In this document: one piece after another, positions 7,959-30,288 of the stretch
Layout: the number at the start of each line of letters is the position of its first letter
How positions within the stretch are numbered: the first letter of the stretch is position 1
Source: an uncultured virus (IMG/VR IMGVR_UViG_3300028888_000091)
Lineage: Duplodnaviria; Heunggongvirae; Uroviricota; Caudoviricetes
Length of the DNA stretch: 30,534 bases
Reading direction: 5' to 3' (one strand)
IMG/VR virus record: IMGVR_UViG_3300028888_000091
Made by a program: the position numbers and the translations under genes
The notes under the pieces: generated by a model
Seen by the model: the letters and a program-made list of their open reading frames with translations, nothing else
Database searches by the model: none
What the model was told of the DNA's origin: nothing

Positions 7959-8153
7959 TTATAATTTTTTATTATATCTATATTCATATAATTCTTCATA
8001 TAACTCTTCCACAATTTTATTTGCTCTCTCATCAGTTTTATTTAATACTCTACAACAATCTTGCATTGTCATCAATAATTCACCAGTAAGATTATCAATT
8101 ATCCCAAGATGTGGAATAATTTCAAATCGTTTGCAATCAGTTCTTTTAGTCAT
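7959..8153 (-). CDS. MTEKRF-array protein
   Basis: MTKRTDCKRF...GIIDNLTG...CCRVLNK. Confidence 0.7.
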   Translation of the reverse strand: MTKRTDCKRFEIIPHLGIIDNLTGELLMTMQDCCRVLNKTDERANKIVEELYEELYEYRYNKKL

Positions 8154-8154
8154 T

Positions 8155-8415
8155 TTATTCTATTTTCTTTGACAGACATTCTACTAATTCATTAGTAATA
8201 ATTACTTTTTTCATTTCTTCCACTTCTTTTTTCAAGTGTTGATTTTCTTCATGGAGTTCATTCAAAAGTTCACATAATGCTTTTGCAGAAGAAAAATGAT
8301 AACATCCTAAATCATTATAAATACAAATAGCATTCTTTTCTTTTGACTCTACCCAATCAACAATATCACATTGATTATGTTGATTTACATTCAATTCAAA
8401 TCGTTTTTCACTCAT
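8155..8415 (-). CDS. MTEKRF-family coiled-coil protein
   Basis: MSEKRF...LCELLNELHEENQHLKKE. Confidence 0.8.
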   Translation of the reverse strand: MSEKRFELNVNQHNQCDIVDWVESKEKNAICIYNDLGCYHFSSAKALCELLNELHEENQHLKKEVEEMKKVIITNELVECLSKKIE

Positions 8416-8749
8416 TATTCAACTCCTTACCATCGATAATAATTTTACATAATCTTGGATGCTCTTTGTAAAATTTTTGTTCTCTTATTTTAAATTTAAA
8501 TAAATCTGAATTAAAATCTCTTATTTCTTTAGGAGTCAAATATAATGGTAAATTTCCATCATATGCTTTCAAACCCTCCCTTAATAACTCAACTTCTTGT
8601 TTTAATTCTTTAATATATTCATCAAACTCATTCAAGAGTTCACATAATCGTTCTGTATAATCAAAAGTATCTAATTGCTCACCAGTAGTATTATCAACAA
8701 TACATTCTCTAATACTTGTCGGTTCAATTGTAAATCGTTTTTCAGTCAT
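8408..8749 (-). CDS. MTEKRF-family coiled-coil protein
   Basis: MTEKRF...LCELLNEFDE. Confidence 0.8.
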   Translation of the reverse strand: MTEKRFTIEPTSIRECIVDNTTGEQLDTFDYTERLCELLNEFDEYIKELKQEVELLREGLKAYDGNLPLYLTPKEIRDFNSDLFKFKIREQKFYKEHPRLCKIIIDGKELNNE

Positions 8750-8997
8750 TCATATCTCTCCATTTTATCCAATGCATCTCTCATTTCATATATTACAAGT
8801 TTCCTTGATTTCATATTACAGTCATGTAAACTGTTTTGAAGAAAGACTATCTCTTTTTTTAATTGTAGGTTTTCTTCATATAATTCATTTAACTTATTAC
8901 ATAACCATTCATTGGTTGGAGCATATTTCTTATCAACAATAGGTGAAGTTTCACCTTTATATTCATCTAAACACCAAAATCGTTTATTTTTATCCAT
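8746..8997 (-). CDS. MTEKRF-family coiled-coil protein
   Basis: MDKNKRF...LCNKLNELYEENLQLKKE. Confidence 0.8.
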   Translation of the reverse strand: MDKNKRFWCLDEYKGETSPIVDKKYAPTNEWLCNKLNELYEENLQLKKEIVFLQNSLHDCNMKSRKLVIYEMRDALDKMERYE

Positions 8998-9314
8998 TAT
9001 AATCTCTCCAAATGCTCAATCATACTTCTAATATGATATTCGATTAACTCATAACTTGTTACAAGAATAGCATCATCAAAATGTTTCCTTTTTTGATTAT
9101 AAATAAAATCATATTCTTTTTTCAAATAATCTAACATATCTTTCTCTTTTTCTTTTAAAAATTGATTTTCTTCATGTAATTCATTCAGTAAATCAATAAT
9201 TCTCTTACAACCTACTCCATCATAAGAGTAACCGAAATCAATCATCACAGTTTTATTTTCTCTATCATATAAATCCCCACTCTTATCCATATAAAATCGT
9301 TTATTCTCTGTCAT
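8997..9314 (-). CDS. MTEKRF-family coiled-coil protein
   Basis: Start reassigned to MTENKRF; IIDLLNELHEENQFLKE. Confidence 0.8.
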   Translation of the reverse strand: MTENKRFYMDKSGDLYDRENKTVMIDFGYSYDGVGCKRIIDLLNELHEENQFLKEKEKDMLDYLKKEYDFIYNQKRKHFDDAILVTSYELIEYHIRSMIEHLERL

Positions 9315-9315
9315 T

Positions 9316-9495
9316 TTAATCCTCTTCTTCCCATAATCCAATTAATAACCAATGTAATGCAAGAATGATAAATCCTAAAAACATTATTACAGATAAATAC
9401 ATTCCTAATTCAATTCCAAATGCAATTAAACCAATCCCAATAATAAATAATGATAGTATAATAAATACAATTTGCCTATATTGTTTTTCACTCAT
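9316..9495 (-). CDS. Two-TM membrane protein (59 aa), array member
   Basis: MSEKQYRQIVFIILSLFIIGIGLIAFGIELGMYLSVIMFLGFIILALHWLLIGLWEEED. Confidence 0.7.
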   Translation of the reverse strand: MSEKQYRQIVFIILSLFIIGIGLIAFGIELGMYLSVIMFLGFIILALHWLLIGLWEEED

Positions 9496-9650
9496 TCCAA
9501 TTCCTCCTTAAACATATCACATTCAAATACTTCATCACAATCAATTCCTTTTTTTATAGTACACCAAGTGTCTACTTCTCTATCAGATACCCAAGTGCCA
9601 TTTTGATACTTACAATCAATGCACAAACTATACTCTCGTTTTTCAGTCAT
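9492..9650 (-). CDS. Cys-rich small protein (52 aa), array member
   Basis: MTEKREYSLCIDCKY...WC...C....ECDMFKEELE. Confidence 0.7.
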   Translation of the reverse strand: MTEKREYSLCIDCKYQNGTWVSDREVDTWCTIKKGIDCDEVFECDMFKEELE

Positions 9651-9778
9651 TCTAAATCCTCATCATTCTTTCCACAAAAAAATATATTCTTTGCACCATT
9701 ACTGCTTATAATAATCATTTTCATACTACAATGTCCAGTATCACAATCCCAATATTTACAAGTTTCACATTTAGTCAT
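9647..9778 (-). CDS. Cys-rich small protein (43 aa), array member
   Basis: MTKCETCKYWDCDTGHC...FCGKNDEDLE. Confidence 0.65.
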   Translation of the reverse strand: MTKCETCKYWDCDTGHCSMKMIIISSNGAKNIFFCGKNDEDLE

Positions 9779-9965
9779 TCAAATCATTCCTTAACTTTTT
9801 AATAAATAATACTTTCCATCTACAATCTTTGCAAATCTTAACTTCTTCAAATTCATTAATTTTTTCCAATTCCATTTCTCCACCACAATTCCTACATTTC
9901 AAATTCTCCCATTCATTTTCAATCATTAATAACTTACCAAAGTTAAATGGAAAAAATTCAGTCAT
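9771..9965 (-). CDS. Zn-ribbon small protein, array member
   Basis: MTEFF...CRNCGGEM...CKDC. Confidence 0.7.
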   Translation of the reverse strand: MTEFFPFNFGKLLMIENEWENLKCRNCGGEMELEKINEFEEVKICKDCRWKVLFIKKLRNDLND

Positions 9966-10211
9966 TCAAAACCCTTTCCTATTTGCACTCCATTTTTGAT
10001 AACCTTGAACCATTTCAATTAATACTTCATTATTTAATTCAAGTACCTTGTTTTCTTCATGTAACTCATTCAATGCTTTACAATATGAAATTAATGCCAT
10101 TTTATCTCCTTTTAAAGTAGGAAATGTGAATTGTTTAAATTTATCACTTATAACCCAACCATCTTTAATCAATTTCGATTTAACAATCTCAAATCGTTTA
10201 TTTCCTCCCAT
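9966..10211 (-). CDS. MTEKRF-family protein
   Basis: MGGNKRF...YCKALNELHEENK. Confidence 0.75.
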   Translation of the reverse strand: MGGNKRFEIVKSKLIKDGWVISDKFKQFTFPTLKGDKMALISYCKALNELHEENKVLELNNEVLIEMVQGYQKWSANRKGF

Positions 10212-10496
10212 TCAAACCACCTTTTCAACTTCCCAAAATGGTGTCCAAAAGTAATCTACCATATCTGTATCATATCGTATAGTATCATTCACCATGATAT
10301 TATTATAATCTTCATTACTAACTGTTATTTCACCATAACAAGTATGTAATGTACCCACAATTCCACCTCTATTATCGTTTACATATATTAATCCTTTATC
10401 ATCTACTTTTGCAACTACTTCTTTTGCATGAATGGGGATAATTAACAATAATCCAATTAAACAAATCAAAAATATTATTAATCGTTTTTCAGTCAT
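10212..10496 (-). CDS. Membrane-anchored or secreted small protein, array member
   Basis: MTEKRL followed by hydrophobic IIFLICLIGLLLIIPIHA. Confidence 0.7.
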   Translation of the reverse strand: MTEKRLIIFLICLIGLLLIIPIHAKEVVAKVDDKGLIYVNDNRGGIVGTLHTCYGEITVSNEDYNNIMVNDTIRYDTDMVDYFWTPFWEVEKVV

Positions 10497-10622
10497 TTAA
10501 ACCATCTGCTCCTTGCATTCTTTACTATTGCACCATTTCTGTTTTAATTGGCAATATAATCTTTGATGTTTGTAAATTTGAAAAGCACATTTCTGCCAAC
10601 TCATACCACTAATTTCAGTCAT
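10497..10622 (-). CDS. Cys-containing small protein (41 aa), array member
   Basis: MTEISGMSWQKCAFQIYKHQRLYCQLKQKWCNSKECKEQMV. Confidence 0.6.
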   Translation of the reverse strand: MTEISGMSWQKCAFQIYKHQRLYCQLKQKWCNSKECKEQMV

Positions 10623-10825
10623 TCAAAATCACCTTGCTTTGCCCTTATCATTAGTGTATCAATTTCGTGTTGAACTTCTAATAAGACTAATTTTTGATTT
10701 TCAAAAAGCAACATCTCCCAAGAACTATTGTCTGCTCTTTTCTGATAATCTTTTGTTCTCATTATTTTTCTTTGAAGAATTGTGTATACCCAACTTAATG
10801 TATTATAATCCAAATTTTCAGTCAT
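10619..10825 (-). CDS. Array protein
   Basis: MTENL...QGDFE*. Confidence 0.7.
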   Translation of the reverse strand: MTENLDYNTLSWVYTILQRKIMRTKDYQKRADNSSWEMLLFENQKLVLLEVQHEIDTLMIRAKQGDFE

Positions 10826-11046
10826 TCAATCTCCTCATATTTGTCTAATTCTTCCTTTAAATATTTTACATAATGTTCTACTCTTTTTAAACTATGATAT
10901 TTTTTAAAATATTCCTTGTATAATCTATTGAGCCGATTAATCTCTTTAACAAAATAATATCTCCCATCATCTGTTTCTAAATCCCAACTAACTCCATTAT
11001 TGTCAATTATTTTACTACCTTTCACTTCAAATCGTTTTTCAGTCAT
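10822..11046 (-). CDS. MTEKRF-family protein
   Basis: Start at MTEKRF after GGTGA RBS. Confidence 0.75.
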   Translation of the reverse strand: MTEKRFEVKGSKIIDNNGVSWDLETDDGRYYFVKEINRLNRLYKEYFKKYHSLKRVEHYVKYLKEELDKYEEIE

Positions 11047-11048
11047 AT

Positions 11049-11222
11049 TCACCACCTACACCCTTTCACTACTGCACTTCTATCTATTCTCTGTTTTGGT
11101 GTAAGCATATGAACAAGATACATACTATTCTCTTCACCCATATGATGATAGTTAATAACTATATTGTCCATATTTCTCCACCAATCTTTTTGCCGACAAT
11201 AATAATCGACATATCGACTCAT
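11049..11222 (-). CDS. Array protein (57 aa)
   Basis: MSRYVDYYCRQKDWW...GCRW*; ATGA overlap with the upstream stop. Confidence 0.6.
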   Translation of the reverse strand: MSRYVDYYCRQKDWWRNMDNIVINYHHMGEENSMYLVHMLTPKQRIDRSAVVKGCRW

Positions 11223-11578
11223 TTAATCCATTCTCCTTTGAATACTTTTCTTAACCTTATTATCTGTCCATTATCCAACCATATTTCATTATTCTTATCA
11301 CATAATAATTTAATAAATGCTTTAAGTTCCTTGTTTTCTTTGCTTAATTCTTCAACTTTATTTTTCGCCTCATCATATAATAATCCCCAGTTATGACTAC
11401 AACCCTCAAAACCTTTTATTTCTTCTTTGAGTTTCTTGTTTTCTTCTGCTAATTCATTTAATTTATTACAAATCTCTTCTGCTTGAATATAGACATCAAC
11501 AATCGCAAATGATTCATCACCATCAAATAATTTCCTATCCCTACACCATTTTCTATGAGTAAATCTTTTTTCAGTCAT
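11219..11578 (-). CDS. MTEKRF-family coiled-coil protein
   Basis: ICNKLNELAEENKKLKEE. Confidence 0.8.
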   Translation of the reverse strand: MTEKRFTHRKWCRDRKLFDGDESFAIVDVYIQAEEICNKLNELAEENKKLKEEIKGFEGCSHNWGLLYDEAKNKVEELSKENKELKAFIKLLCDKNNEIWLDNGQIIRLRKVFKGEWIK

Positions 11579-11871
11579 TCTAAATCTCCTTGCAATTTGT
11601 TGTGTTTATTTTTTAAACCATTTACATAGTTTTTAAAGGCATCAGATGGTTCTGCATCTTGCTCTCGCAATATTGAAATTTCATTCCATAAAATACTGTT
11701 CTCACTTACACTTATTAAGCAGTTATGTTTCCAGTCTTCTTTTTCTTCATGTAAATCATTTAACAAATCACATAACTTTTTAGCATCAATACTTGAATAA
11801 TAACATTTTTCTTCTGTATCATAAATATTCTGATTACTATCAGATGAAATATAATATCTTTTTTCAGTCAT
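11575..11871 (-). CDS. MTEKRF-family protein
   Basis: MTEKRY...LCDLLNDLHEE...QGDLE*. Confidence 0.8.
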   Translation of the reverse strand: MTEKRYYISSDSNQNIYDTEEKCYYSSIDAKKLCDLLNDLHEEKEDWKHNCLISVSENSILWNEISILREQDAEPSDAFKNYVNGLKNKHNKLQGDLE

Positions 11872-12165
11872 TCACTTTTCCTCCCCTAAAATATCAAGTA
11901 ATCTGTTTAATGTACTTGCTCCATCGAAATCAAGATAAGTATAACAATCATCTCTGAATGCTTTAATTTGTCCAAGAATAAATTTATTTTTTTCTTTGAG
12001 TTCCTCGTTTTCTTTTTCCAATCGTTTGGACTTATCAAACAATCCATTTATTCGACTACATAAAGCATTAACTCCTCCTTGATATTCCAATAAATATTTT
12101 CTTCCTTTTGGACTATTTTCTGTAATAGTTAATCCATCAACTGTAAATCGTTTATTTTCTGCCAT
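11872..12165 (-). CDS. MTEKRF-family coiled-coil protein
   Basis: MAENKRF...LEKENEELKEK. Confidence 0.8.
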   Translation of the reverse strand: MAENKRFTVDGLTITENSPKGRKYLLEYQGGVNALCSRINGLFDKSKRLEKENEELKEKNKFILGQIKAFRDDCYTYLDFDGASTLNRLLDILGEEK

Positions 12166-12284
12166 TCTTCTACCTCATAATGCTCACATAATTCTGTTTT
12201 TAGAGTAAATATTGTTTTCACTTCACAAAATCCAGTATCATAATTCCAGTATTTGCAATTATAACATCGTTTATTTTCTGTCAT
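12129..12284 (-). CDS. Cys-rich small protein (51 aa), array member
   Basis: MTENKRCYNCKYWNYDTGFC...LCEHY; paralog of 9647-9778. Confidence 0.65.
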   Translation of the reverse strand: MTENKRCYNCKYWNYDTGFCEVKTIFTLKTELCEHYEVEEWQKINDLQLMD

Positions 12285-12286
12285 TA

Positions 12287-12433
12287 TCAAATCACATCAT
12301 TTAATAAATCACATAATGATTGTAAATTTCTTGGTTCAATATCAACAAATTCATGCTTTTTATGAGTAACTGTATCTTTTATATTATGCACACCATGATA
12401 CCCAGTTTCAACAATAAATCGTGTTTCACTCAT
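12287..12433 (-). CDS. MTEKRF-family protein lacking the coiled coil (48 aa)
   Basis: MSETRF...IKD...LCDLLNDVI*. Confidence 0.7.
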   Translation of the reverse strand: MSETRFIVETGYHGVHNIKDTVTHKKHEFVDIEPRNLQSLCDLLNDVI

Positions 12434-12771
12434 TCTAAATCACCATATCCTTTGAAAAATTCTGAACCAAAATAAATATGATTTTCAGTTTTAAACCATT
12501 TTTCATCATTTTTTGCCATTATTGACATAATCCCAGTAACTTGTTTACCAATATCAGTTTTTGGAATTTGAACATAAGTTCCTTTTAATTCACTAAACTT
12601 TTCTAATTGTAATTGTTTTAATAATTGAGGCAATCTTAATGGATTAAAATCAACACAAACTCCACCATGAGTGGTTTTTAATGTTAATTCCAATCGGAAA
12701 TTTTGCCCACTTATTCCTTCAATATCATCAAATAATAAATCTGCATTTGTAATTAAAGCATTCTCTGTCAT
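12430..12771 (-). CDS. Array protein
   Basis: MTENA...GYGDLE*. Confidence 0.75.
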   Translation of the reverse strand: MTENALITNADLLFDDIEGISGQNFRLELTLKTTHGGVCVDFNPLRLPQLLKQLQLEKFSELKGTYVQIPKTDIGKQVTGIMSIMAKNDEKWFKTENHIYFGSEFFKGYGDLE

Positions 12772-12775
12772 TCTT

Positions 12776-13429
12776 TCACCTTGTAGTATTCCACCATTGT
12801 TTTATATCATTTACTGTAACAGTTCCTTTATCTTCAACAAAATCAAGCATTTCCATATGTTTCGATTTAAGCATTTGATTTTCCTTTTTAAGTTCTTTGT
12901 TTTCTTTTTCTAAATCTTCATTACAATCAATAATAAAACTAATGTATCCACTAAAAATATCTTGTTTATCCCCCAAAAGTAAATCTACATCTCGAATTAA
13001 ACTATGAACAGTTATATCAATCTCATCTTCTTCATAATCTTTAATAAAATATTTTAATTCACCAATAGTTCTTTTAAGCAATGATAAAACATAATCTGCA
13101 TCCACTTCTTCAAATTTAAATTTGGATTTGAGTTCCTTGTTTTCTTCTTTTAACTGCTCATTCTCTTTTTCCAATTCTTTAATTTTTTCTGTTGCTTTAT
13201 CAGACCAATATTTGCTCCCATCATATAAATCTACAATTGCTTGATTTTGGTCATTCAAGAATACTACTAATTGTGCTACGAATTGTTGAGCATTCAAATC
13301 TGAATGTTTTAAAACAAGTACATCGCCACTACGATTTTCTTTAACTCCAATTTCACCATCACAATCAGTAATAATTGTAAATCTATCTTCACAAGTTTTT
13401 CTTCCAACAAATAATCGTTTTTCAGTCAT
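12776..13429 (-). CDS. MTEKRF-family coiled-coil protein (largest member)
   Basis: MTEKRL...EKENEQLKEENKELK...EKENKELKKENQ. Confidence 0.8.
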   Translation of the reverse strand: MTEKRLFVGRKTCEDRFTIITDCDGEIGVKENRSGDVLVLKHSDLNAQQFVAQLVVFLNDQNQAIVDLYDGSKYWSDKATEKIKELEKENEQLKEENKELKSKFKFEEVDADYVLSLLKRTIGELKYFIKDYEEDEIDITVHSLIRDVDLLLGDKQDIFSGYISFIIDCNEDLEKENKELKKENQMLKSKHMEMLDFVEDKGTVTVNDIKQWWNTTR

Positions 13430-13821
13430 TTTCTTCTCCTTAACTCTTCATTAATTTCACATTGACTAACTTCTAATCCCCATTCAATGATTTCTCTCAA
13501 TTCTTTATTTTCTTCTTTGAGTTCTCTCCATTCGTTTTTAGTATTTCTTTCACGAATGAATAACACTTCTCTTTGTTGTTTAAGTTCATTGTTTTCTTTT
13601 TTTAATTCTTTATAATTTGTTGCAATTATTCTGCTAATTCGTTGATGTACCTTTCTTTGCTTTTCTAATATTTGATTTTCTTCGTGTAACTCATTTAAGA
13701 GTTTTACAACTTTTCTATAAGCATCTTCATCGCAACTTTCACATAATTCATTTTCTGCTTGATAATCGTATATTCCACTACCTAATACTGTTTGAGTTAC
13801 TGCAAATCGTTTTTCAATCAT
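13426..13821 (-). CDS. MTEKRF-family coiled-coil protein
   Basis: MIEKRF...VVKLLNELHEENQ. Confidence 0.8.
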   Translation of the reverse strand: MIEKRFAVTQTVLGSGIYDYQAENELCESCDEDAYRKVVKLLNELHEENQILEKQRKVHQRISRIIATNYKELKKENNELKQQREVLFIRERNTKNEWRELKEENKELREIIEWGLEVSQCEINEELRRRK

Positions 13822-14081
13822 TCAGATAACTCCTTTTTTGTTAATTCTAATTCTCTTCTTAATTCTCTCTGCACATCATTTAACTCATTAGCACTTTTAA
13901 TATTTTCCAATATCACTTTTTTATTCTCATTAACTATTCTACGATTCCATCGTTCCAACAATCCTATTTCTAAACTTTTTGCAATACGATATGCAAAAAC
14001 AATTAAAAAAACCAATAATGGAACTAAAATAATAATATACAATATTGTCATTAATTCAAATGAAATTAAAATTTCAGTCAT
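13818..14081 (-). CDS. Single-TM membrane protein, array member
   Basis: MTEIL plus hydrophobic helix plus coiled coil. Confidence 0.7.
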   Translation of the reverse strand: MTEILISFELMTILYIIILVPLLVFLIVFAYRIAKSLEIGLLERWNRRIVNENKKVILENIKSANELNDVQRELRRELELTKKELSE

Positions 14082-14100
14082 TCAAACTCACCATAATCCA

Positions 14101-14481
14101 TCAGTAATATTCTTCATAAGGCATTCCAAGAATATCTTCTATATCCTTTTTTAATTGTTTGTTTTCTTCTATCTGCCCCATATACATTTTATGAAGTTTA
14201 TCAAATCCTTCGTTATTTTCTTTCAAATTTAATTTTGATAAATTTAATTCATTTTTAAGTTTCCTATTTTCCTTATCCAACTCATTCAATATACTACATA
14301 CATCTTCTCTACTCATCATTGAATCTGTTTCATCAACAAGATAATTATCAAATTGCCATACAAGAATATCTCCATCTTCATCTTTGAAATCTTCAATATT
14401 TTTATCTGCTTTTGATAAATCAAATATAGCATAATCACGATATTCTAATAAATCATCACAATAATATTGTTTTTCACTCAT
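14101..14481 (-). CDS. MTEKRF-family coiled-coil protein
   Basis: Start at MSEKQY; VCSILNELDKENRKLK. Confidence 0.75.
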   Translation of the reverse strand: MSEKQYYCDDLLEYRDYAIFDLSKADKNIEDFKDEDGDILVWQFDNYLVDETDSMMSREDVCSILNELDKENRKLKNELNLSKLNLKENNEGFDKLHKMYMGQIEENKQLKKDIEDILGMPYEEYY

Positions 14482-14488
14482 AAAAAAA

Positions 14489-14635
14489 TCACCATCCACC
14501 ATTTACATATCTTTCCCATTCTCTATCCTCAAATTTATTCAACAAATCTACAATTTCATTCAAAGACAAAGTTCTTAACAATTCCCTATCATAAATTGCA
14601 CCATCATCACGAAGATAATATCTTTTTTCACTCAT
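14489..14635 (-). CDS. MTEKRF-family protein (48 aa)
   Basis: MSEKRYYLRDDGAIYD...IVDLLNKF. Confidence 0.7.
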   Translation of the reverse strand: MSEKRYYLRDDGAIYDRELLRTLSLNEIVDLLNKFEDREWERYVNGGW

Positions 14636-14930
14636 AATTATTCCAATCCTTTAAATTTTCTTTTAACCAATTAATATCAAAATTCAAATCAGAAGAATGA
14701 ATTATTGTTAATCGTAATCTATGATTTTCATCAATTAAACCATTATTAACTTTTTCTGCATAACTTAATCTTTGTTTCATTTGTTGGTTTTCTTCTTGTA
14801 ACTCATTAAGCATATTACAACAATCTTTCGCATCAAAACCATTTCCAAAATGATAACATCTTTTATTAATATTCCAGTTATCTTTCATTTCAATATCATT
14901 TTCAATTGTAAATCGTTTATTCTCTGTCAT
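14628..14930 (-). CDS. MTEKRF-family coiled-coil protein
   Basis: MTENKRF...CCNMLNELQEENQQ. Confidence 0.8.
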   Translation of the reverse strand: MTENKRFTIENDIEMKDNWNINKRCYHFGNGFDAKDCCNMLNELQEENQQMKQRLSYAEKVNNGLIDENHRLRLTIIHSSDLNFDINWLKENLKDWNNYE

Positions 14931-15103
14931 TCCAAATCACCATTAAATGTTTTCCAGTCAAATCGTATCATATCAAGTATTTCTTCAAGTTCTTCTTCAT
15001 TCATTTCTTTTAATCTACCTACATACCATTTTAAAAACCCACTAACCCAATTTGCTCTTACTGATGGTGGAGCAAGATAATCTTCAATCTCTAATCGTGT
15101 CAT
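14927..15103 (-). CDS. Array protein (58 aa)
   Basis: MTRLEIEDYLAPPS...FNGDLE*. Confidence 0.65.
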   Translation of the reverse strand: MTRLEIEDYLAPPSVRANWVSGFLKWYVGRLKEMNEEELEEILDMIRFDWKTFNGDLE

Positions 15104-15106
15104 CAC

Positions 15107-15472
15107 TTACACCTCTTCCAATCTTGCAATAGTATATATTTCATTTATACATCTTCGTAATCGCCCATTCTCTTCTTGCAGTTCTTGTATCTTTTTCTTA
15201 TAGTTAGTGTAATCTTTATCTCTCAATATATCATTGATGAGTTGCAGTCTTGCGATTGTATTTTGCAACTGTTTGTTTTCTTCTGCTAACTCATTCAATT
15301 TATCAACAAGTTGAATAATATTCTCTTCCGAAGTGGAATAGACATAAAAAAGATTAGACTCATCTAAATCATCAGAATGATTTTTATCTATCTCATACAG
15401 TTTCACTTCATCCAAAAATTTATCAGTTTTACTAATTTCAAAACTTTCAAATCCAAATCGTTTTTCAGTCAT
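15107..15472 (-). CDS. MTEKRF-family coiled-coil protein
   Basis: Start at MTEKRF; LVDKLNELAEENKQLQ. Confidence 0.8.
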   Translation of the reverse strand: MTEKRFGFESFEISKTDKFLDEVKLYEIDKNHSDDLDESNLFYVYSTSEENIIQLVDKLNELAEENKQLQNTIARLQLINDILRDKDYTNYKKKIQELQEENGRLRRCINEIYTIARLEEV

Positions 15473-15866
15473 TCCCATCACCATCATCTAATCCTTTTGT
15501 TGCTATTCCATTCCACCATTCTACAAAATCATCAATAGGCATATATTTATTCTGTTTTTGCATATAATTCGCAACATTATCTAACATTTTCAATAATCTC
15601 TCATTAGATTGTTTTAACTGCTCATTCTCTTTTAATGATTTATGATACAATTCTGCATATTTTGTTGCACCATCTTCCAATAACTTATTTTCAATTTCAA
15701 GAAATTCACATTCATCATTTAATTCATTCATCAAATCGCATAACCATTTGGTTTCAATTTCAGTACGAATGCCATTAATTACATTTATTTTATCGGGAGT
15801 ATCGTTATCAGTAATACCAAATAAATCATCTTGTGGTTTAATTGTAAATCGTTTATTTTCTGTCAT
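15465..15866 (-). CDS. MTEKRF-family coiled-coil protein
   Basis: MTENKRF...LCDLMNELNDE...KENEQLK. Confidence 0.8.
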   Translation of the reverse strand: MTENKRFTIKPQDDLFGITDNDTPDKINVINGIRTEIETKWLCDLMNELNDECEFLEIENKLLEDGATKYAELYHKSLKENEQLKQSNERLLKMLDNVANYMQKQNKYMPIDDFVEWWNGIATKGLDDGDGND

Positions 15867-15868
15867 TA

Positions 15869-16096
15869 TCAATCAATCCTTTTCCAAGCCAAATGCTCAT
15901 CTGTTTTTCCATTTTTAAGATAATACAACCCTTTTAATCTTTCACATTCTCTTTTCCACATTTCTTTTTCATCATTTAACTCATTCAATAACTCCACCAC
16001 ATCACTAATATTATACAACTTCAATCCTTTTTGAATAATAATAAGTGTACCATCTTTTGCAACATTCTGCGGGAATATTTCAAATTTTTCAGTCAT
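15869..16096 (-). CDS. MTEKRF-family protein
   Basis: Start at MTEKF; VVELLNELNDEKE. Confidence 0.75.
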   Translation of the reverse strand: MTEKFEIFPQNVAKDGTLIIIQKGLKLYNISDVVELLNELNDEKEMWKRECERLKGLYYLKNGKTDEHLAWKRID

Positions 16097-16256
16097 AAAA
16101 ATCATCTCTTCTTTGCTTAATGACAATATAATCGTGTTCTATTATTACATCACTATTCATAATATACTCATATAATTCATTAACAACTTTATTATATGCT
16201 TGTCCTATGTCATCTGCATCTACAAGTACCCTAACATCAACAAAAAATTCAGTCAT
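16089..16256 (-). CDS. Array protein (55 aa)
   Basis: MTEFFVDVRVLVDADDIGQAY... Confidence 0.65.
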   Translation of the reverse strand: MTEFFVDVRVLVDADDIGQAYNKVVNELYEYIMNSDVIIEHDYIVIKQRRDDFYD

Positions 16257-16262
16257 TCCACA

Positions 16263-16433
16263 TCACCTTTTCATATGATACCTTGCTTTACTTAATTTTA
16301 CCCATTTTCTCATTTTATACCTTGAATGCCTTTTAGGAAAATCATTATTGATACATACATTCCTTTTTAGATATTTGCTCATTGTAGGAGTATTTATTGT
16401 AACAGAGTCTGCTAAAACATAATTAAGTTTCAT
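16263..16433 (-). CDS. Basic small protein (56 aa), array member
   Basis: MKLNYVLADS...; GGTGATTTGA-ATG junction. Confidence 0.55.
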   Translation of the reverse strand: MKLNYVLADSVTINTPTMSKYLKRNVCINNDFPKRHSRYKMRKWVKLSKARYHMKR

Positions 16434-16438
16434 TCAAA

Positions 16439-16549
16439 TCACCATACATACCAATACATCCAAAACCAACAATTAGAACATTTGTAAAAATAACTGAAAG
16501 AATTAACCATCTCTGCCCCACACTTCTCACATCGTATATTCTCTGTCAT
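16439..16549 (-). CDS. Zn-ribbon mini-protein (36 aa), array member
   Basis: MTENIRCEKCGAEM...YKCSNCW. Confidence 0.6.
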   Translation of the reverse strand: MTENIRCEKCGAEMVNSFSYFYKCSNCWFWMYWYVW

Positions 16550-16555
16550 TCCCAA

Positions 16556-16732
16556 TCACTTTCCAGTTAATGTTATCCAATTTATTCCATCAAAACAATG
16601 TACATTCTGTAAATCTTGAATATGTTCACAATCATCATAAATTACACTTACACGAACCTTTTTATCCCCATTGCCAGTTTCAATAAGGTCTAATAAATGA
16701 GATGTTAAATCTCTAACACTTATTTCAGTCAT
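16556..16732 (-). CDS. Array protein (58 aa)
   Basis: MTEISVRDL...GDKKVRVSVIYD; resembles 17320-17511. Confidence 0.65.
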   Translation of the reverse strand: MTEISVRDLTSHLLDLIETGNGDKKVRVSVIYDDCEHIQDLQNVHCFDGINWITLTGK

Positions 16733-17105
16733 TCAAAATCAACTCTTTATGTCCTAATAACCATTCATTATAATCTTCAATTATTTCTTTTAGTGCTTTT
16801 TGACCCAATTCTGTTTTCTGATGTTCAATATGCTCTGTAATTAAATTTTGAATATAATTTAATTGTGTTTTTAACTGCTCATTCTCAATAGTTAAAGTAT
16901 CAATATTTCTACCGAATTTTAATGCTCTTTCTCGTTCTTCATTAAATCTTATTTTTAACTGCTCATTCTCATTCCATAATTTATTTAATTCATCTACAAG
17001 TCCTTGACAATGAAATGGTTTTCCTTTGCTAATTTTCTGAATTGGAATTGATTGATATTGAGAAATTGAAGAATTTTTAATATAAGTAAATCGTTTTTCA
17101 GTCAT
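16725..17105 (-). CDS. MTEKRF-family coiled-coil protein
   Basis: LVDELNKLWNENEQLK...IENEQLK. Confidence 0.8.
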   Translation of the reverse strand: MTEKRFTYIKNSSISQYQSIPIQKISKGKPFHCQGLVDELNKLWNENEQLKIRFNEERERALKFGRNIDTLTIENEQLKTQLNYIQNLITEHIEHQKTELGQKALKEIIEDYNEWLLGHKELILND

Positions 17106-17320
17106 TCAATCACCCATTCAAATAAATCCCTATCTACACAATTGTCCTTATCATTTAACAATAGTATATCATGTTCAATACTGGATAAATAATTTAAAAT
17201 TTCTTTTTTATGGTATTGGGGATTATTATCCAACACCATTTCTTGTGCTTTCAGTAATATAAGATACATTCTTTTTAAACTGATATTTGCACATACATCA
17301 CATACTTCTTTTTCAATCAT
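17102..17320 (-). CDS. Array protein
   Basis: MIEKEVCDVC... Confidence 0.7.
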   Translation of the reverse strand: MIEKEVCDVCANISLKRMYLILLKAQEMVLDNNPQYHKKEILNYLSSIEHDILLLNDKDNCVDRDLFEWVIE

Positions 17321-17511
17321 TAATATCCCTCAAATTTAACTTTTGAATATTTCTTCATAGGTTGTAAATCCACCATTGGAAGTTTATTTTTTATAGGAGT
17401 AACAACCAACCCACTATCATAACTTACAACCACTTCTAAATCACCATACTCATCAAGTAAAGGTTCTAATAACTCATATAATTCTCTAACAGTCACATCT
17501 TTTTCAGTCAT
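17320..17511 (-). CDS. Array protein
   Basis: MTEKDVTVRELYELL...YGDLEVVVSYD. Confidence 0.7.
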   Translation of the reverse strand: MTEKDVTVRELYELLEPLLDEYGDLEVVVSYDSGLVVTPIKNKLPMVDLQPMKKYSKVKFEGY

Positions 17512-17831
17512 TAGAAATCACCTTTCCAAATTTCTCTCATTTTTTGAAATTCTTCAAATGTAAAAATGATTCCACCCCAATATCTTACATTTTCACTACT
17601 GATGTTCTCTACTTCCATCTGAACAAGCATTGTATGAATTAATTCTTTAATTTCATTATTTTCTTTTTGTAATTTTGACAATGCTTTACTTCTTTCTCTT
17701 GCTTTTGTATCAAGATTGTTCATAACATCTACAATCTCATTTGCTTCTACTTCATTAACCAACCATTTTTCTCCATCGTAGAAATGGTCATAAATATAAT
17801 GCCCATTAGTAGAAAATCGTTCTTCAGTCAT
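17511..17831 (-). CDS. MTEKRF-family coiled-coil protein
   Basis: MTEERF...IVDVMNNL...KGDF*. Confidence 0.8.
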   Translation of the reverse strand: MTEERFSTNGHYIYDHFYDGEKWLVNEVEANEIVDVMNNLDTKARERSKALSKLQKENNEIKELIHTMLVQMEVENISSENVRYWGGIIFTFEEFQKMREIWKGDF

Positions 17832-18036
17832 TTAAATCATCTACCTCAATTTTCACATTTATTTTTTTAATGTACTTTAAAGCATATTTTAAGCCACTAT
17901 TTTCTAATTTAAGCCTCTCATTTTCATCATTTAACTCATTTATTATATCTACAAGTTCATCTTCACCTAAAACACTAAACCCATACTTCCTATCATTAAT
18001 CCCATTCTCATCAAGATAAAATCTTTTTTCACTCAT
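17824..18036 (-). CDS. MTEKRF-family coiled-coil protein
   Basis: MSEKRF...LVDIINELNDENERLK. Confidence 0.8.
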   Translation of the reverse strand: MSEKRFYLDENGINDRKYGFSVLGEDELVDIINELNDENERLKLENSGLKYALKYIKKINVKIEVDDLND

Positions 18037-18042
18037 TCAACA

Positions 18043-18190
18043 TCACCATTTTTCTTGCAACCAAGCAATAATCATTAAATTTAATGCTTCTTCTTTTGAC
18101 ATTCCATCATTCATCATTTTTTCTAACTCTTTTTTAAGAACTGGATGTTTAGGTATTCTTTTTTTTCATCTCTTCAAATATTAAAATCAT
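18043..18190 (-). pseudogene. Small gene frameshifted at an A8 tract
   Basis: MILIFEEMKK then stop; removing one A (T8 at 18159-18166 on +) restores ...RIPKHPVLKKELEKMMNDGMSKEEALNLMIIAWLQEKW*. Confidence 0.5.
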
Positions 18191-18208
18191 TCCAAATCAC
18201 TCCATATT

Positions 18209-18463
18209 TCACTCATTCCAATCCCACCATAATTCATCATTCAATTTTAATTCAAGAAATGCCATTACTCCACTTATAACTCTTTGATATTTTTCTTGTC
18301 TTTTCGAATATTTAGATATTCTTTTCCCTTTTCTAATCCTATACTCTTCAAGATTGTTGAGTTCATCAACAATTTTATCAATATCATATACTCTATTATC
18401 AGTATCTATAATACCTTTAAATTCTTTTGTATTATCATCATAATAAGCATGAAATTTTCTCAT
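18209..18463 (-). CDS. MTEKRF-related protein
   Basis: MRKF...GIID...IVDELNNLEE. Confidence 0.7.
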   Translation of the reverse strand: MRKFHAYYDDNTKEFKGIIDTDNRVYDIDKIVDELNNLEEYRIRKGKRISKYSKRQEKYQRVISGVMAFLELKLNDELWWDWNE

Positions 18464-18476
18464 ATTACACTCTTCC

Positions 18477-18746
18477 TTAATCAATAATTAACCTTATATC
18501 ATGATTATAATCTTCTATTTTTGTTAATAATTCGGAAATCCCAATTATTTTCTCTTTTAATAAATCATTTTCTTTTTTTAACTTAATGATATATTCATAT
18601 TCATCAAATTTTTCACTACATAAATCATCTAATTCATTTAATGTATCACATAATTCAGACCAAGATAATTTATCATCTTCACATTTTCCAGTTGAATTCC
18701 AAGTATCAATGATTCCATAACAATCAATAATAAACCTATCAGTCAT
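18477..18746 (-). CDS. MTEKRF-related protein
   Basis: Start at MTDRF; GIID...LCDTLNELDD. Confidence 0.75.
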   Translation of the reverse strand: MTDRFIIDCYGIIDTWNSTGKCEDDKLSWSELCDTLNELDDLCSEKFDEYEYIIKLKKENDLLKEKIIGISELLTKIEDYNHDIRLIID

Positions 18747-18822
18747 AATATCTCCATAATCCATATAATATTCCAATTACTAAAAATATTAAAAACCAAC
18801 TAACAATAACATCCCACATCAT
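18739..18822 (-). CDS. Hydrophobic mini-protein (27 aa)
   Basis: MMWDVIVSWFLIFLVIGILYGLWRYYD; overlaps both neighbours. Confidence 0.5.
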   Translation of the reverse strand: MMWDVIVSWFLIFLVIGILYGLWRYYD

Positions 18823-24859: not shown

Positions 24860-24915
24860 AACAGTTTCTATATGAAACAGTTTCCTTATGAAACAGTTTC
24901 CTTATGAAACAGTTT
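24860..24915. repeat. 16-bp tandem repeat x3.5
   Basis: (TATGAAACAGTTTCCT)n, containing the GAAAC-A-GTTTC palindrome. Confidence 0.9.
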
Positions 24916-25044
24916 ATTAGTATACTAATTTCAGACCTTTAAAATAACATAAAGTTAGATTAAGTTATATTAAATTAGTTTACTATTAAACTAAATATGT
25001 ATACAAATTTTCAAAATGTATACAAATTTTAAGGATTTCAAAAT

Positions 25045-25129
25045 ATCACTTTTTGTGAATTTTATTTCACTTTTTGTGAACAAATTTAAATAATTCACTT
25101 TTTGTGAATTTTATTTCACTTTTTGTGAA
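25045..25129. repeat. Four copies of palindrome TTCAC-TTTTT-GTGAA in two pairs
   Basis: Copies near 25045, 25066, 25094, 25115. Confidence 0.9.
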
Positions 25130-25726: not shown

Positions 25727-25910
25727 ACACATAGTATATACAAAATATGTACGATATTTGTACGATTTATATACATTCAGAATTTAAACACATAGTATAT
25801 ACAATTTTAATACGATTTATGTACATTCAGAATTTAAACACATAGTATATACAATTTATGTACTTTAAAATATACACATAGTATATACAATTTTAATACG
25901 ATTTATATAC
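25727..25910. repeat. Four copies of ACACATAGTATATACAA within degenerate ~50-bp repeats
   Basis: Copies at 25727, 25788, 25838, 25874. Confidence 0.9.
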
Positions 25911-30240: not shown

Positions 30241-30288
30241 TTAATTTATTATTTTTTTATATTTTTTTCAAATAAAAAGGTGTGTAAA

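What the first reader, a model, noticed from the sequence alone, without database searches (positions are those of the whole stretch)
7959..18822. ~44-gene 'MTEKRF' array: unrelated mini-genes linked by one conserved ~30-bp junction
Seen: across 10.8 kb nearly every gene boundary resembles GGTGATTT(A/G)GA-ATGACTGAAAAACGATTT, fusing the RBS, the upstream stop (ATGA overlap) and the first ~6 codons. Proteins therefore often end GD(L/F)E* and begin M(T/S)E(N)KR(F/Y). The tag sits on clearly different bodies: coiled coils, membrane proteins (9316-9495, 10212-10496, 13818-14081), Zn ribbons and Cys-rich peptides. ATTTCAGTCATTCAAAATCA is identical at 10612-10631 and 16722-16741 between four unrelated genes. 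Inference: (a) the junction is a homology handle for gene-by-gene insertion, deletion and exchange that preserves translational coupling, or (b) the peptide is a targeting signal, analogous to the N-terminal capsid-targeting sequence shared by T4 internal proteins.
Basis: partly seen in the sequence, partly recalled or inferred. Interest (0 to 1): 0.85.

Follow-up and report, generated by a model that had tools for sequence, protein, structure and literature searches.

The report
Shuffled mini-gene array, methanogen virus
A virus of rumen methane-producing archaea carries a row of 43 tiny genes joined by one short shared start/stop sequence, and comparison with related viruses shows single genes being swapped, lost and recombined at that sequence, much like a card deck of accessory genes.

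Summary
Window 7959-18822 (minus strand) holds 43 tightly packed small genes. 30 of 43 start M[TS]E, against 1 of 64 ORFs elsewhere in the same 50.8-kb virus record. First correction: the genes are not all unrelated. 24 of 43 are paralogs of one large unnamed family (three short beta strands, then a coiled coil, with an internal LNELxEEN motif). The other 19 are unrelated bodies, and 13 of them still carry the tag. Second correction: only the 3' half of the junction is strongly conserved (ATGAnTGAAAAACGATTT). GD[LF]E endings occur in 4 of 43.

The conservation is at DNA level. The tag Arg is CGA in 20 of 25 cases, against 11% of body Arg codons. Thr2 is ACT in 130 of 137 tags in relatives. Two synonymous variants travel together across unrelated bodies.

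Identity with 40 related IMG/VR contigs breaks at gene starts: 26 of 50 endpoints against 9.9 expected. Whole cassettes 87-100% identical sit beside different neighbours (0 of 11 neighbours kept). Hosts are Methanobrevibacter. Arrays reach at least 60 tagged genes over 43 kb in a 196-kb virus.

Best reading: a hyperplastic cassette region whose translational-coupling junction doubles as a recombination handle. This is a new variant of T4 PeSL shuffling. The peptide-signal reading is not supported, and not excluded.

The parts
7959..18822 (-). Whole array: 43 small genes g01-g43 plus micro-ORFs, one orientation
18739..18822 (-). g01, 27 aa, non-family, hydrophobic (MMWD...)
18477..18746 (-). 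g02, 89 aa, family (MTDRF...)
18209..18463 (-). g03, 84 aa, family, divergent start MRKF
18187..18216 (-). 9-codon micro-ORF MSEIWSDLE*: a tag start running straight into the next junction ('empty cassette')
   Evidence: read from sequence; ATGAGTGA at 18209-18216
18149..18190 (-). 13-codon micro-ORF overlapping the previous one by ATGA
   Evidence: read from sequence
18043..18117 (-). 24-aa ORF ending in GGTGAT just before g04
17824..18036 (-). g04, 70 aa, family (MSEKRF)
17511..17831 (-). g05, 106 aa, family (MTEERF)
17320..17511 (-). g06, 63 aa, non-family with tag (MTEKDV); whole cassette 93.8% identical in another contig with other neighbours
17102..17320 (-). g07, 72 aa, non-family (MIEKEV); cassette 89.5% identical elsewhere
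16725..17105 (-). g08, 126 aa, family (MTEKRF)
16556..16732 (-). g09, 58 aa, non-family with tag (MTEISV); cassette 93.5% identical elsewhere
16439..16549 (-). g10, 36 aa, non-family, CxxC x2 (MTENIRC)
16263..16433 (-). g11, 56 aa, non-family, no tag (MKLN)
16089..16256 (-). g12, 55 aa, non-family with tag (MTEFFV)
15869..16096 (-). g13, 75 aa, family (MTEKF)
15465..15866 (-). g14, 133 aa, family (MTENKRF)
15107..15472 (-). g15, 121 aa, family (MTEKRF)
14927..15103 (-). g16, 58 aa, non-family (MTRLEI), ends GDLE; 98% identical elsewhere together with the tail of g15
14628..14930 (-). g17, 100 aa, family (MTENKRF)
14489..14635 (-). g18, 48 aa, short family member (MSEKRY)
14101..14481 (-). g19, 126 aa, family (MSEKQY)
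13818..14081 (-). g20, 87 aa, non-family, membrane-like, with tag (MTEILI); cassette 93% identical elsewhere
13426..13821 (-). g21, 131 aa, family (MIEKRF)
12776..13429 (-). g22, 217 aa, family, long coiled coil (MTEKRL)
12430..12771 (-). g23, 113 aa, non-family with tag (MTENAL), ends GDLE
12287..12433 (-). g24, 48 aa, family member cut off right at the LLN motif (MSETRF...LLNDVI*)
12129..12284 (-). g25, 51 aa, non-family, Cys-rich, full tag (MTENKRCY); overlaps g26 by 37 nt
11872..12165 (-). g26, 97 aa, family (MAENKRF); its head is fused to the tail of g28 in other samples
11575..11871 (-). g27, 98 aa, family (MTEKRY), ends GDLE
11219..11578 (-). g28, 119 aa, family (MTEKRF)
11049..11222 (-). 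g29, 57 aa, non-family, no tag (MSRYV)
10822..11046 (-). g30, 74 aa, family (MTEKRF); 232 nt 100% identical in another contig, from the ATG to 10 nt into the next gene
10619..10825 (-). g31, 68 aa, non-family with tag (MTENLD), ends GDFE
10497..10622 (-). g32, 41 aa, non-family, Cys-rich, tag (MTEISG)
10212..10496 (-). g33, 94 aa, non-family, N-terminal hydrophobic helix after full tag (MTEKRLII)
9966..10211 (-). g34, 81 aa, family (MGGNKRF)
9771..9965 (-). g35, 64 aa, non-family, CxxC x2, tag (MTEFFP)
9647..9778 (-). g36, 43 aa, non-family, Cys-rich (MTKCET); weak kin of g25
9492..9650 (-). g37, 52 aa, non-family, Cys-rich, tag (MTEKREYS); cassette 92% identical in three contigs
9316..9495 (-). 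g38, 59 aa, non-family, membrane-like, tag (MSEKQY)
8997..9314 (-). g39, 105 aa, family (MTENKRF)
8746..8997 (-). g40, 83 aa, family (MDKNKRF)
8408..8749 (-). g41, 113 aa, family (MTEKRF)
8155..8415 (-). g42, 86 aa, family (MSEKRF); modelled: strands 6-10, 16-20, 29-31, helix 40-85
7959..8153 (-). g43, 64 aa, family with displaced KRF (MTKRTDCKRF)
10612..10631 (-). junction g31/g32, 20-mer identical to 16722-16741
16722..16741 (-). junction g08/g09, identical 20-mer
14071..14090 (-). junction upstream of g20, same 20-mer with one mismatch
11437..12007 (-). 569-nt stretch absent from contigs of two other samples: a joint between the coiled-coil starts of g26 and g28, 8 nt shared at the joint
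   Evidence: table 5 (side 110) and table 8

Best explanation
This is the hyperplastic accessory-gene region of a tailed virus of rumen Methanobrevibacter. It is a one-way, probably co-transcribed string of mini-gene cassettes.

About half of the cassettes are diverged paralogs of one very large unnamed family: a short three-stranded beta head, then a coiled coil. The rest are unrelated small proteins (membrane-like, Cys-rich, others).

Each junction is a composite translation signal. It holds a Shine-Dalgarno site inside the last codons of the upstream gene, then ATGAnTGA, which carries a TGA in both other reading frames. An upstream gene arriving in either of those frames therefore stops inside the next start. 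In family genes the codons AAA CGA TTT follow. The peptides M-T/S/I-E and the E* or ND* endings are largely the translation of this signal.

Because stop, ribosome site and start all lie within one short shared block, a crossover anywhere in it rebuilds a working junction. I propose that homologous or microhomology-driven recombination acts between junction copies, both within a genome and between co-infecting viruses or proviruses. This would duplicate, delete and swap single cassettes, and would keep the junction uniform at synonymous sites (concerted evolution). A second shared block inside family genes, the DNA encoding LNELxEEN, would shuffle heads and tails in the same way.

SHOWN: junction conservation, synonymous-site conservation, linked synonymous haplotypes, breakpoint enrichment, cassettes with changed neighbours, and head/tail chimeras. 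INFERRED: that homology causes the exchange, that the genes are translationally coupled, and that the cargo is early accessory proteins (host take-over or counter-defence).
For: Array-specific tag: 28 of 41 array ORFs against 1 of 64 elsewhere. The closest GenBank relative, vir080, has 0 of 25 early genes with it.

DNA-level constraint:
- The tag Arg is CGA in 20 of 25 cases, against 14 of 128 body Arg codons (p=2e-15).
- In 40 related contigs, with genes carrying the search motif removed: ACT 130 of 137 (body 43%) and CGA 69 of 92 (body 15%, p=8e-38).
- CGA is the less A-rich choice, so 'unstructured A-rich start' does not explain it.
- Two synonymous sites are linked: ACT-GAA 32, ACA-GAG 9, mixed 4 (Fisher p=3e-6). 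In the window ACAGAGAAT is shared by g10, g17, g23 and g39, whose bodies are unrelated or diverged.
- ATGAnTGA sits at 27 of 43 starts.
- An ATGA overlap alone does not force ACT: second codons at -4 overlaps in relatives include ATT, AAT, AAA, AAC and AAG.

Breakpoints: among 25 non-redundant HSPs (at least 80% identity and 80 bp), 26 of 50 ends lie within 25 nt of a gene start (null 9.9 +/- 2.8, 0 of 5000). 10 more lie at the internal motif (null 4.7, p=0.012). Alignments change from identical to unrelated at or just before the ATG on one side, and inside the next ATGACTGAAA on the other.

Cassette mobility: 7 window cassettes have homologs of at least 70% identity over their full length in other contigs (11 instances). 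0 of 11 keep the upstream neighbour and 0 of 11 the downstream one.

The cassettes cross virus lineages: of 5 records tested, 2 have this terminase (86% and 53-64% identity) and 3 have no match.

Head/tail swaps: homologs of g42 carry the tails of g13, g04 and g08. A g26-head/g28-tail chimera stands in two other samples, with 110 nt on the shorter side of the joint.

The internal motif is also synonymously biased: TTG 31 of 48 (body 16%) and GAG 33 of 48 (body 21%).

An independent RNA-library run holds contigs 100% identical across several junctions, which supports the gene order.

Nuclease genes lie on both sides of the array: an Mre11-like phosphoesterase, ERCC4 and ParB_N.
Against: - The strongly shared block is short (about 11-18 nt, plus a variable SD site). 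That is at the low end for homologous recombination, and no recombinase was identified.
- Mosaic borders at gene borders are also expected if random joins are filtered by selection.
- The relatives were found with an exact 18-mer of the junction, so they are enriched for it. The codon tests remove those genes but not that ascertainment.
- ORFs in the relatives were called by a crude script.
- The one variant with long flanks on both sides lies at the internal motif, not at a junction. The many junction-to-junction joints have sides of only 20-24 nt and were not used.
- All run data are contigs. Transcription, translation and coupling are not shown.
- The upstream half of the junction is weakly conserved: GGTGA in 12 of 43, GD[LF]E in 4 of 43.
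Confidence: 0.6

Rival explanations
1. Translation signal only. The junction is conserved because it is the best re-initiation module in this host: SD site, stop-start overlap in either frame, a favoured second codon, a rare-codon pause at codon 5. Cassette borders coincide with it only because overlapping genes leave no other place where a join keeps both genes intact. Recombination is illegitimate and sorted by selection.
For: 23 of 42 junctions overlap. ATGAnTGA gives stops in both other frames and sits at 27 of 43 starts. An SD-like core lies before 34 of 43 starts. This reading explains M-T/S/I-E and the E*/ND* endings without any peptide function.
Against: The same virus translates 64 other ORFs in the same host with the tag on only 1, and vir080 uses none. 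Other -4 overlaps use many second codons. The CGA preference and the linked ACA-GAG haplotype shared by unrelated bodies look like identity by descent rather than convergence. The internal motif shows the same synonymous bias away from any start codon.
Confidence: 0.17
2. Peptide signal. The N-terminal M-T-E-K-R-F is an address or processing tag read by a viral or host factor: virion packaging like the T4 capsid-targeting sequence, a protease or chaperone site, or N-terminal maturation. That is why it is kept on unrelated proteins.
For: The tag is on 13 of 19 non-family bodies in the window and on 115 of 252 tagged ORFs in relatives that miss the family profile, among them an HNH-like nuclease. 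All 33 family members fetched from the profile search keep x-x-(K)R[FY] within 7 residues of the start. In the model the first five residues precede strand 1, so the fold does not explain them. In T4 the first 10 residues of IPIII suffice for head targeting (PMC9026906, passage read).
Against: On most non-family genes only M-T/S-E is shared, which is too short for a known address and is what ATGAnTGA encodes. Synonymous sites are constrained beyond the peptide. Membrane-like proteins carry it. 43 to more than 60 packaged species per virus would be unprecedented. No cleavage motif was found or searched for.
Confidence: 0.08
3. Plain paralogy. The array is a tandem expansion of one family. The shared start is inherited and conserved as part of the protein, and the 'unrelated' genes are family members diverged or overprinted beyond recognition. 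The junction has no special role.
For: 24 of 43 are demonstrable paralogs. The family is huge: 3,708 representatives at E<=1e-3 and 86 at E<=1e-10, though some of these are long coiled-coil proteins. F6 is invariant in the g42 group.
Against: The family profile finds nothing significant in any frame of the non-family genes. The best are E=0.18 for g20 and E=2.8 for g37, although the profile was built from the 24 members themselves. Bodies have diverged to 20-36% identity while synonymous sites of the tag stay fixed. Membrane-like, CxxC and HNH-like bodies are different folds.
Confidence: 0.1

Closest known systems
PeSL cassettes (promoter-early stem-loop) in the hyperplastic regions of T4-type phages (Arbiol et al. 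2010, PMC2839356, abstract and section 16 read; Comeau et al. 2014, PMC4122927, abstract read)
   Same: Short conserved sequences flank small non-essential ORFans in variable regions. Indels and replacements between related phages map to them. They are proposed to act as preferred homologous-recombination sites that carry their own expression signals.
   Different: PeSLs are intergenic elements of about 100 bp made of a promoter and a terminator. Here there is no intergenic DNA. The handle is an SD site, a dual-frame stop-start overlap and the first codons, so it lies in coding sequence, acts at the level of translation and imprints a peptide on the cargo. The host is an archaeon. Mini-circles were not looked for. 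The same virus record also has a PeSL-like array of a different kind at 26.5-30.5 kb.
Short conserved boundary sequences at module junctions of lambdoid phages (concept as cited in PMC3029335, passages read; the original papers, Susskind and Botstein 1978 and Clark et al. 2001, are recalled and were not read)
   Same: Homologous recombination at short shared sequences at gene borders as a source of mosaicism.
   Different: In those phages such sequences are found at few borders, and illegitimate recombination is thought to dominate (PMC3029335). Here one sequence recurs at nearly every border of a 10.8-kb array, and in 40 contigs.
T4 internal proteins with the capsid-targeting sequence (PMC9026906, passage read)
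   Same: A short shared N-terminus on otherwise different small proteins of a variable locus.
   Different: The CTS is 10-19 residues, acts as a peptide and is cleaved off. Here the shared part is 3-6 residues, is conserved at synonymous sites, and is mostly explained by overlapping stop/start signals. Virion location is untested.
Integron gene-cassette arrays (recalled)
   Same: One-way rows of promoterless small cassettes of mixed function with high turnover.
   Different: No integrase lies in the window and there is no hairpin-forming attC-like repeat at the junctions. Exchange here would be by homology, not site-specific.
   Same: A cassette row with a shared N-terminus and repeated junctions on shuffling genes.
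   Different: It is a different virus, host and junction type (terminator-promoter-SD). That note favoured a virion address. It was not checked here.

Membership tests
PeSL-type shuffling cassettes (T4 hyperplastic regions) | A conserved short motif flanks small ORFan genes in a variable region | tested here: met
   Logo; 18 matches against 0.25 expected; no Pfam or PHROG family above cut-off for any of the 43
PeSL-type shuffling cassettes (T4 hyperplastic regions) | The motif is an intergenic promoter plus stem-loop terminator | tested here: not met
   38 of 42 junctions span -8 to +7 nt, so there is no intergenic space; no recurrent inverted repeat at the junctions
PeSL-type shuffling cassettes (T4 hyperplastic regions) | Differences between related genomes have their endpoints at the motif | tested here: met
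   26 of 50 HSP ends within 25 nt of a start, against 9.9 expected; flank alignments; 0 of 11 neighbours conserved
PeSL-type shuffling cassettes (T4 hyperplastic regions) | Excised mini-circles with one chimeric motif | not testable with these tools
   Only contigs of public runs were available
T4-like capsid-targeting sequence | Shared N-terminal peptide of about 10 residues on unrelated proteins | tested here: inconclusive
   M[TS]E on 13 of 19 non-family genes, but the full MTEKRF mostly on family members
T4-like capsid-targeting sequence | Tagged proteins are in the virion and the tag is cleaved by the head protease | not testable with these tools
   No proteomics available; no cleavage motif analysis done
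T4-like capsid-targeting sequence | Constraint acts on the peptide, so codons are free | tested here: not met
   CGA 20 of 25 against 11%; ACT 130 of 137 and CGA 69 of 92 in relatives; linked synonymous sites
Integron cassette array | Adjacent tyrosine-recombinase integrase | tested here: not met
   No integrase among the 32 flanking ORFs scanned against Pfam. The record is only 53% complete, so one could lie off the contig
Integron cassette array | attC-type imperfect inverted repeat at each cassette end | tested here: not met
   21 scattered short inverted pairs, only one touching a junction
Translationally coupled operon (stop-start overlap) | Overlapping stop and start codons with an SD site inside the upstream gene | tested here: met
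   12 x ATGA, 8 x ATGAnTGA, 3 x -1 overlap; SD core before 34 of 43 starts. The coupling itself is not shown
KRF...LNELxEEN paralog family (unnamed) | N-terminal beta head plus LNELxEEN motif plus coiled coil | tested here: met
   24 of 43 genes; model pLDDT 78.8; 53 close homologs of g42; 3,708 profile hits; no Pfam, PHROG or PDB counterpart

The most novel reading that the evidence does not exclude
Viruses of gut and rumen Methanobrevibacter share a communal pool of mini-gene cassettes that move between otherwise unrelated virus lineages through a purpose-kept, frame-tolerant 'translational junction' (SD site plus ATGAnTGA plus tag codons). This would work as a homology-driven counterpart of an integron that needs no integrase and no intergenic DNA. 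A second in-gene handle (LNELxEEN, whose DNA resembles the junction itself) would combine protein heads and coiled-coil tails into new proteins. Together they would form a built-in diversity generator for host-interaction or counter-defence proteins, taking up as much as a fifth of a 196-kb genome.
Probability: 0.3. Interest if true: 0.8.

Novelty: new variant of a known kind. Interest (0 to 1): 0.66.

Why it matters
Most phage mosaicism lacks visible recombination sites, and PeSLs in T4-type phages are the main exception. Here a different kind of handle, lying in coding sequence and working at the level of translation, recurs at almost every border of arrays of 5 to more than 60 genes in archaeal viruses. 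If real, it shows how tightly overlapping genes can still be exchanged one at a time. It also explains an odd shared N-terminus without invoking a peptide function. And it marks a large, fast-turning pool of unknown small proteins in viruses of the main methane producers of ruminants, which is where host-range and counter-defence factors would be expected. The family of several thousand sequence clusters has no name, fold match or function.

Tried and rejected
- Pfam and PHROGs on all 43 proteins: only sub-threshold coiled-coil matches.
- Foldseek of the g42 model against the PDB: no hit at E<=1e-3. The weak top rows were Pur-alpha, WW and chromo domains. The protein atlas returned only unnamed clusters.
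- GenBank phages: no tblastn hit for g42 and no blastn hit for 7.95 kb of the array.
- A locus search with the 24-paralog alignment failed because no stretch was conserved enough. It was replaced by a single-protein search and a motif scan.
- Overprinting idea: the family profile found no relic in other frames of the non-family genes.
- attC-like hairpins: none recurrent.
- Runs: the RNA-library run X2 holds 51% of the sampled words and 100%-identical contigs. DNA carry-over cannot be excluded, so this does not show transcription. About 250 joints with sides of 20-24 nt probably reflect the shared motifs or other organisms, and were not used. Shares of 0.04-0.08 in further runs were not used for habitat.
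- The genome-contig scan gave 30 hits. 7 are in Methanobrevibacter assemblies and 4 are small contigs of rumen or gut bins of other taxa. The rest are single hits in unrelated organisms, of the order expected by chance for an 18-mer in 596 Gb (my estimate of about 17 assumes equal base frequencies).
- The resemblance between the internal-motif DNA (GTTGATTTATTGAATGAGTTA) and the junction (GGTGATTTAGAATGACTGAA) is suggestive of a fossil junction. It was not tested statistically.
- Literature: searches found no description of such arrays. The compendium paper behind vir080 and vir249 is not in the searchable library, and neither it nor its supplements was read, so an earlier mention there cannot be excluded.

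Full report
WHAT THE WINDOW IS

The window is bases 20293-50782 of a 50,782-bp linear IMG/VR virus record, rated 53% complete. GC content is about 26%. Its only DNA relatives among GenBank phages are two Caudoviricetes records annotated with host Methanobacteriales, matching in the large terminase and a DNA-repair exonuclease.

An exact scan for the junction 18-mer in 185,579 species genomes gave 30 hits. Seven are in Methanobrevibacter assemblies from rumen, goat gut and faeces. Four are small contigs of rumen or gut bins of other taxa. The rest are single hits in unrelated organisms, roughly the number an 18-mer should give by chance in 596 Gb. The host is therefore most likely a gut or rumen Methanobrevibacter.

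Genes flanking the array on the same strand are terminase large and small subunits, HNH, ParB_N, a calcineurin-like (Mre11-type) phosphoesterase, a thymidylate-synthase-like protein, DUF3310, DUF2828/DUF7788 and an ERCC4 nuclease. The array thus sits in the replication and early part of the genome.

THE OBSERVATION

I curated 43 consecutive minus-strand genes, g01-g43, from 18822 down to 7959.

Of the 42 junctions:
- 12 overlap by 4 nt (ATGA)
- 8 overlap by 8 nt (ATGAnTGA)
- 3 overlap by 1 nt
- 4 abut
- 11 have 1-7 nt between the genes
- the remaining four are 13, 19, 172 and -37 nt

30 of 43 proteins start M[TS]E. ATGASTGARAA occurs 18 times, all on the minus strand and 17 of them in the array, against 0.25 expected. 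M[TS]E is on 28 of 41 array ORFs but on only 1 of 64 other ORFs of the record. It is therefore a property of the array, not of the virus or its host.

First, the genes are not all unrelated. With the first 8 residues removed, 21 of 43 still form one blastp cluster (composition correction was off, so coiled-coil bias may help). Together with three short members they align as 24 paralogs with the pattern MTEKRF ... I.D ... LC.LLNEL.EEN..LK. The other 19 do not match the family profile in any frame (that profile was built from the 24 members themselves). Even so, 13 of these 19 start M[TS]E.

Second, the upstream half of the junction is weak. GGTGA precedes 12 of 43 starts, another SD-like 4-mer precedes 22, and 9 have none. 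GD[LF]E* ends only 4 proteins. GGTGAT is complementary to the conserved 3' end of 16S rRNA (established knowledge, not checked here). The E* and ND* endings are what ...GAATGA and ...AATGACTGA encode in the upstream frames.

THE JUNCTION IS CONSTRAINED AS DNA

- The Arg of the tag is CGA in 20 of 25 window genes, but CGA is only 14 of 128 Arg codons in the gene bodies (p=2e-15).
- I collected 40 related IMG/VR contigs (482 kb) with an exact scan for the 18-mer.
- In those contigs, after discarding every gene that carries the search motif, Thr2 is ACT in 130 of 137 (body 43%), Ser2 is AGT in 37 of 48 (body 39%), and the Arg is CGA in 69 of 92 (body 15%, p=8e-38).
- Among MTEN starts two synonymous sites are linked: ACT-GAA 32, ACA-GAG 9, mixed 4 (p=3e-6).
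- The window prefers ACAGAGAAT, on g10, g17, g23 and g39, whose bodies are unrelated or far diverged. Relatives prefer ACTGAAAAT (30 of 38).
- Part of the pattern has a direct reading. ATGAnTGA has a TGA in both other frames and sits at 27 of 43 starts (39 matches in the window against 18 +/- 4 expected). It encodes M-(T/S/I/N)-(E/D).
- An ATGA overlap alone does not force ACT. Second codons at -4 overlaps in the relatives include AGT, ATT, AAT, AAA, AAC and AAG.
- CGA and the linked haplotypes are not explained by stops or by A-richness. They look like identity by descent of the junction itself.

BREAKPOINTS

I ran blastn of the array against the relatives. It gave 25 non-redundant HSPs of at least 80% identity and 80 bp. 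Of their 50 ends, 26 lie within 25 nt of a gene start (9.9 +/- 2.8 expected; reached in 0 of 5000 random placements). A further 10 lie within 25 nt of the internal motif (4.7 expected, p=0.012).

Whole cassettes recur at high identity:
- g30, 100% over 232 nt
- g16 with the tail of g15, 98%
- g20, 93%
- g06, 94%
- g09, 93.5%
- g37, 92%
- g07, 89.5%

The flank alignments go from identical to unrelated at or a few bases before the ATG on one side, and inside the next gene's ATGACTGAAA on the other. For the 7 window cassettes with full-length homologs of at least 70% identity (11 instances), neither neighbour is conserved in any instance (0 of 11 and 0 of 11). Over all tag-bearing clusters there are 74 inter-contig pairs, of which 22 keep the upstream and 21 the downstream neighbour (some contigs are near-duplicates).

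A SECOND HANDLE INSIDE THE FAMILY GENES

The 53 close homologs of g42 keep its first 60 residues or so, but carry different tails. Some of those tails are the tails of other window paralogs: P0004 has the tail of g13, P0008 that of g04, P0034 that of g08.

A relative has a gene made of the head of g26 (96% over 48 aa) and the middle of g28. The same joint (11437 to 12007, skipping 569 nt, with 8 nt shared) stands in contigs of two further samples, with 110 nt on the shorter side.

The motif itself is synonymously biased: Leu is TTG in 31 of 48 (body 16%) and Glu is GAG in 33 of 48 (body 21%). Its DNA consensus resembles the junction. I note this as a lead only.

SPREAD

The 18-mer hits 65 stretches in 40 IMG/VR contigs, always on one strand per contig. 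In five records searched whole, ATGASTGARAA gives the following counts; the reversed control pattern gave 0-1 in each:
- 61 forward, 0 reverse in a 195,936-bp record rated complete, with 60 of them within 113.5-156.7 kb
- 0 forward, 10 reverse in a second record
- 13 forward, 0 reverse in a third
- 4 forward, 0 reverse in a fourth
- 0 forward, 5 reverse in a fifth

Only 2 of the 5 have a homolog of this window's terminase (86% and 53-64% identity). The cassettes are therefore shared across virus lineages. The GenBank relative vir080 has no tag on any of its 25 early genes, and GenBank phages have no match to the array.

In the relatives, 137 of 252 distinct M[TS]E ORFs hit the family profile. 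The other 115 do not: 13 are membrane-like and 8 have paired CxxC, among them HNH-like nucleases (ORF calls are crude).

The family profile finds 3,708 representatives at E<=1e-3 and 86 at E<=1e-10 among 1.84 billion. A few long proteins among them match only the coiled-coil part. All 33 that I fetched have x-x-(K)R[FY] within 7 residues of the start. Six of them contain a second module behind an in-frame junction, that is, fused cassettes.

WHAT THE PROTEINS ARE

This remains unknown. The AlphaFold model of g42, built with 34 homologs, has pLDDT 78.8. It shows strands at 6-10, 16-20 and 29-31 and one long helix at 40-85. The tag residues 1-5 precede strand 1. There is no PDB fold match at E<=1e-3, no Pfam or PHROG family, and only unnamed atlas clusters.

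From position, size and turnover I infer early accessory proteins (host take-over, counter-defence or exclusion). That is inference only.

EXPRESSION AND ASSEMBLY

The probable source run tiles the array without differences. An RNA-library run from another study holds 51% of the sampled words. Its contigs are 100% identical and span several junctions, for example 10451-11077 and 16204-16739. This supports the gene order in an independent sample and is compatible with co-transcription. DNA carry-over cannot be excluded, and contigs show neither strand nor ends.

VERDICT

The finding is real, widespread and, by my searches, not described. The paper that named vir080 and vir249 could not be read.

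It works like the PeSL-mediated modular shuffling of T4-type hyperplastic regions (PMC2839356, PMC4122927) and like the 'short conserved boundary sequence' idea for lambdoid phages (as cited in PMC3029335). It is not a member of either. The handle has no promoter, terminator or intergenic DNA. It is a coding, frame-tolerant stop/SD/start block.

I rate it a new variant of a known kind. Confidence is 0.6 that the junction serves as, and is homogenised by, recombination. The translation-only, peptide-address and plain-paralogy readings remain as rivals.

Noticed in passing
window 26509-30478, + strand: A second cassette array of a different type. About nine small ORFs, five starting MENK, sit in DNA of only 13-17% GC. 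Each is preceded by a conserved unit of 70-106 nt: a T-rich run, AAGGTTTAAATCCTTTCAAATCCTTT, then AAATAAGGTGT about 5 nt before the ATG. There are 9 copies. It looks like a terminator/promoter/SD cassette, close in kind to T4 PeSLs, and lies in the same virus as the overlap-type array.
   Followed up: partly
window 24860-25920: A cluster of short direct repeats in a gene-poor stretch where gene orientation and GC skew switch: AACAGTTTCCTTATGAAACAGTTT x3; TTTCACTTTTTGTGAA units; ACACATAGTATATACAA x4. Possibly a replication origin or a divergent control region.
   Followed up: no
window 18043-18216, - strand: The only large gap of the array (172 nt) holds a 9-codon ORF, MSEIWSDLE*. It begins with the tag and ends in a junction, followed by a 13-codon and a 24-codon ORF. 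These look like relics of deleted or collapsed cassettes.
   Followed up: partly
proteins P0056, P0059, P0062, P0068, P0075, P0086: Database relatives in which two family modules are fused in frame across a junction (for example ...GDDG-MTEKRF...). A junction can therefore be read through to give two-module proteins.
   Followed up: no
related IMG/VR contigs (script): HNH-like nuclease ORFs (CCIC...HHILH...CHNCH) that begin MTEKRF or MTEKKLF. The tag is thus also found on an enzyme fold.
   Followed up: no
G001:C1:13393-14709: In the 196-kb relative the terminase match is split into two parts about 420 nt apart inside one 609-aa open frame. This suggests an inserted domain or an intein.
   Followed up: no
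window 12287-12433 (g24) and 12129-12284 (g25): g24 is a family head cut off exactly at LLN by a junction (…TTATTAAATGATGTGATTTGATAATG…). The internal-motif DNA and the junction DNA are near-identical 16-mers placed in tandem here. g25 then overlaps g26 by 37 nt.
   Followed up: partly
family tails, e.g. P0080, P0059, P0083: The coiled-coil tails repeat the motif (K)ENEQLK(Q) up to five times per protein. This may give further in-frame crossover points.
   Followed up: no
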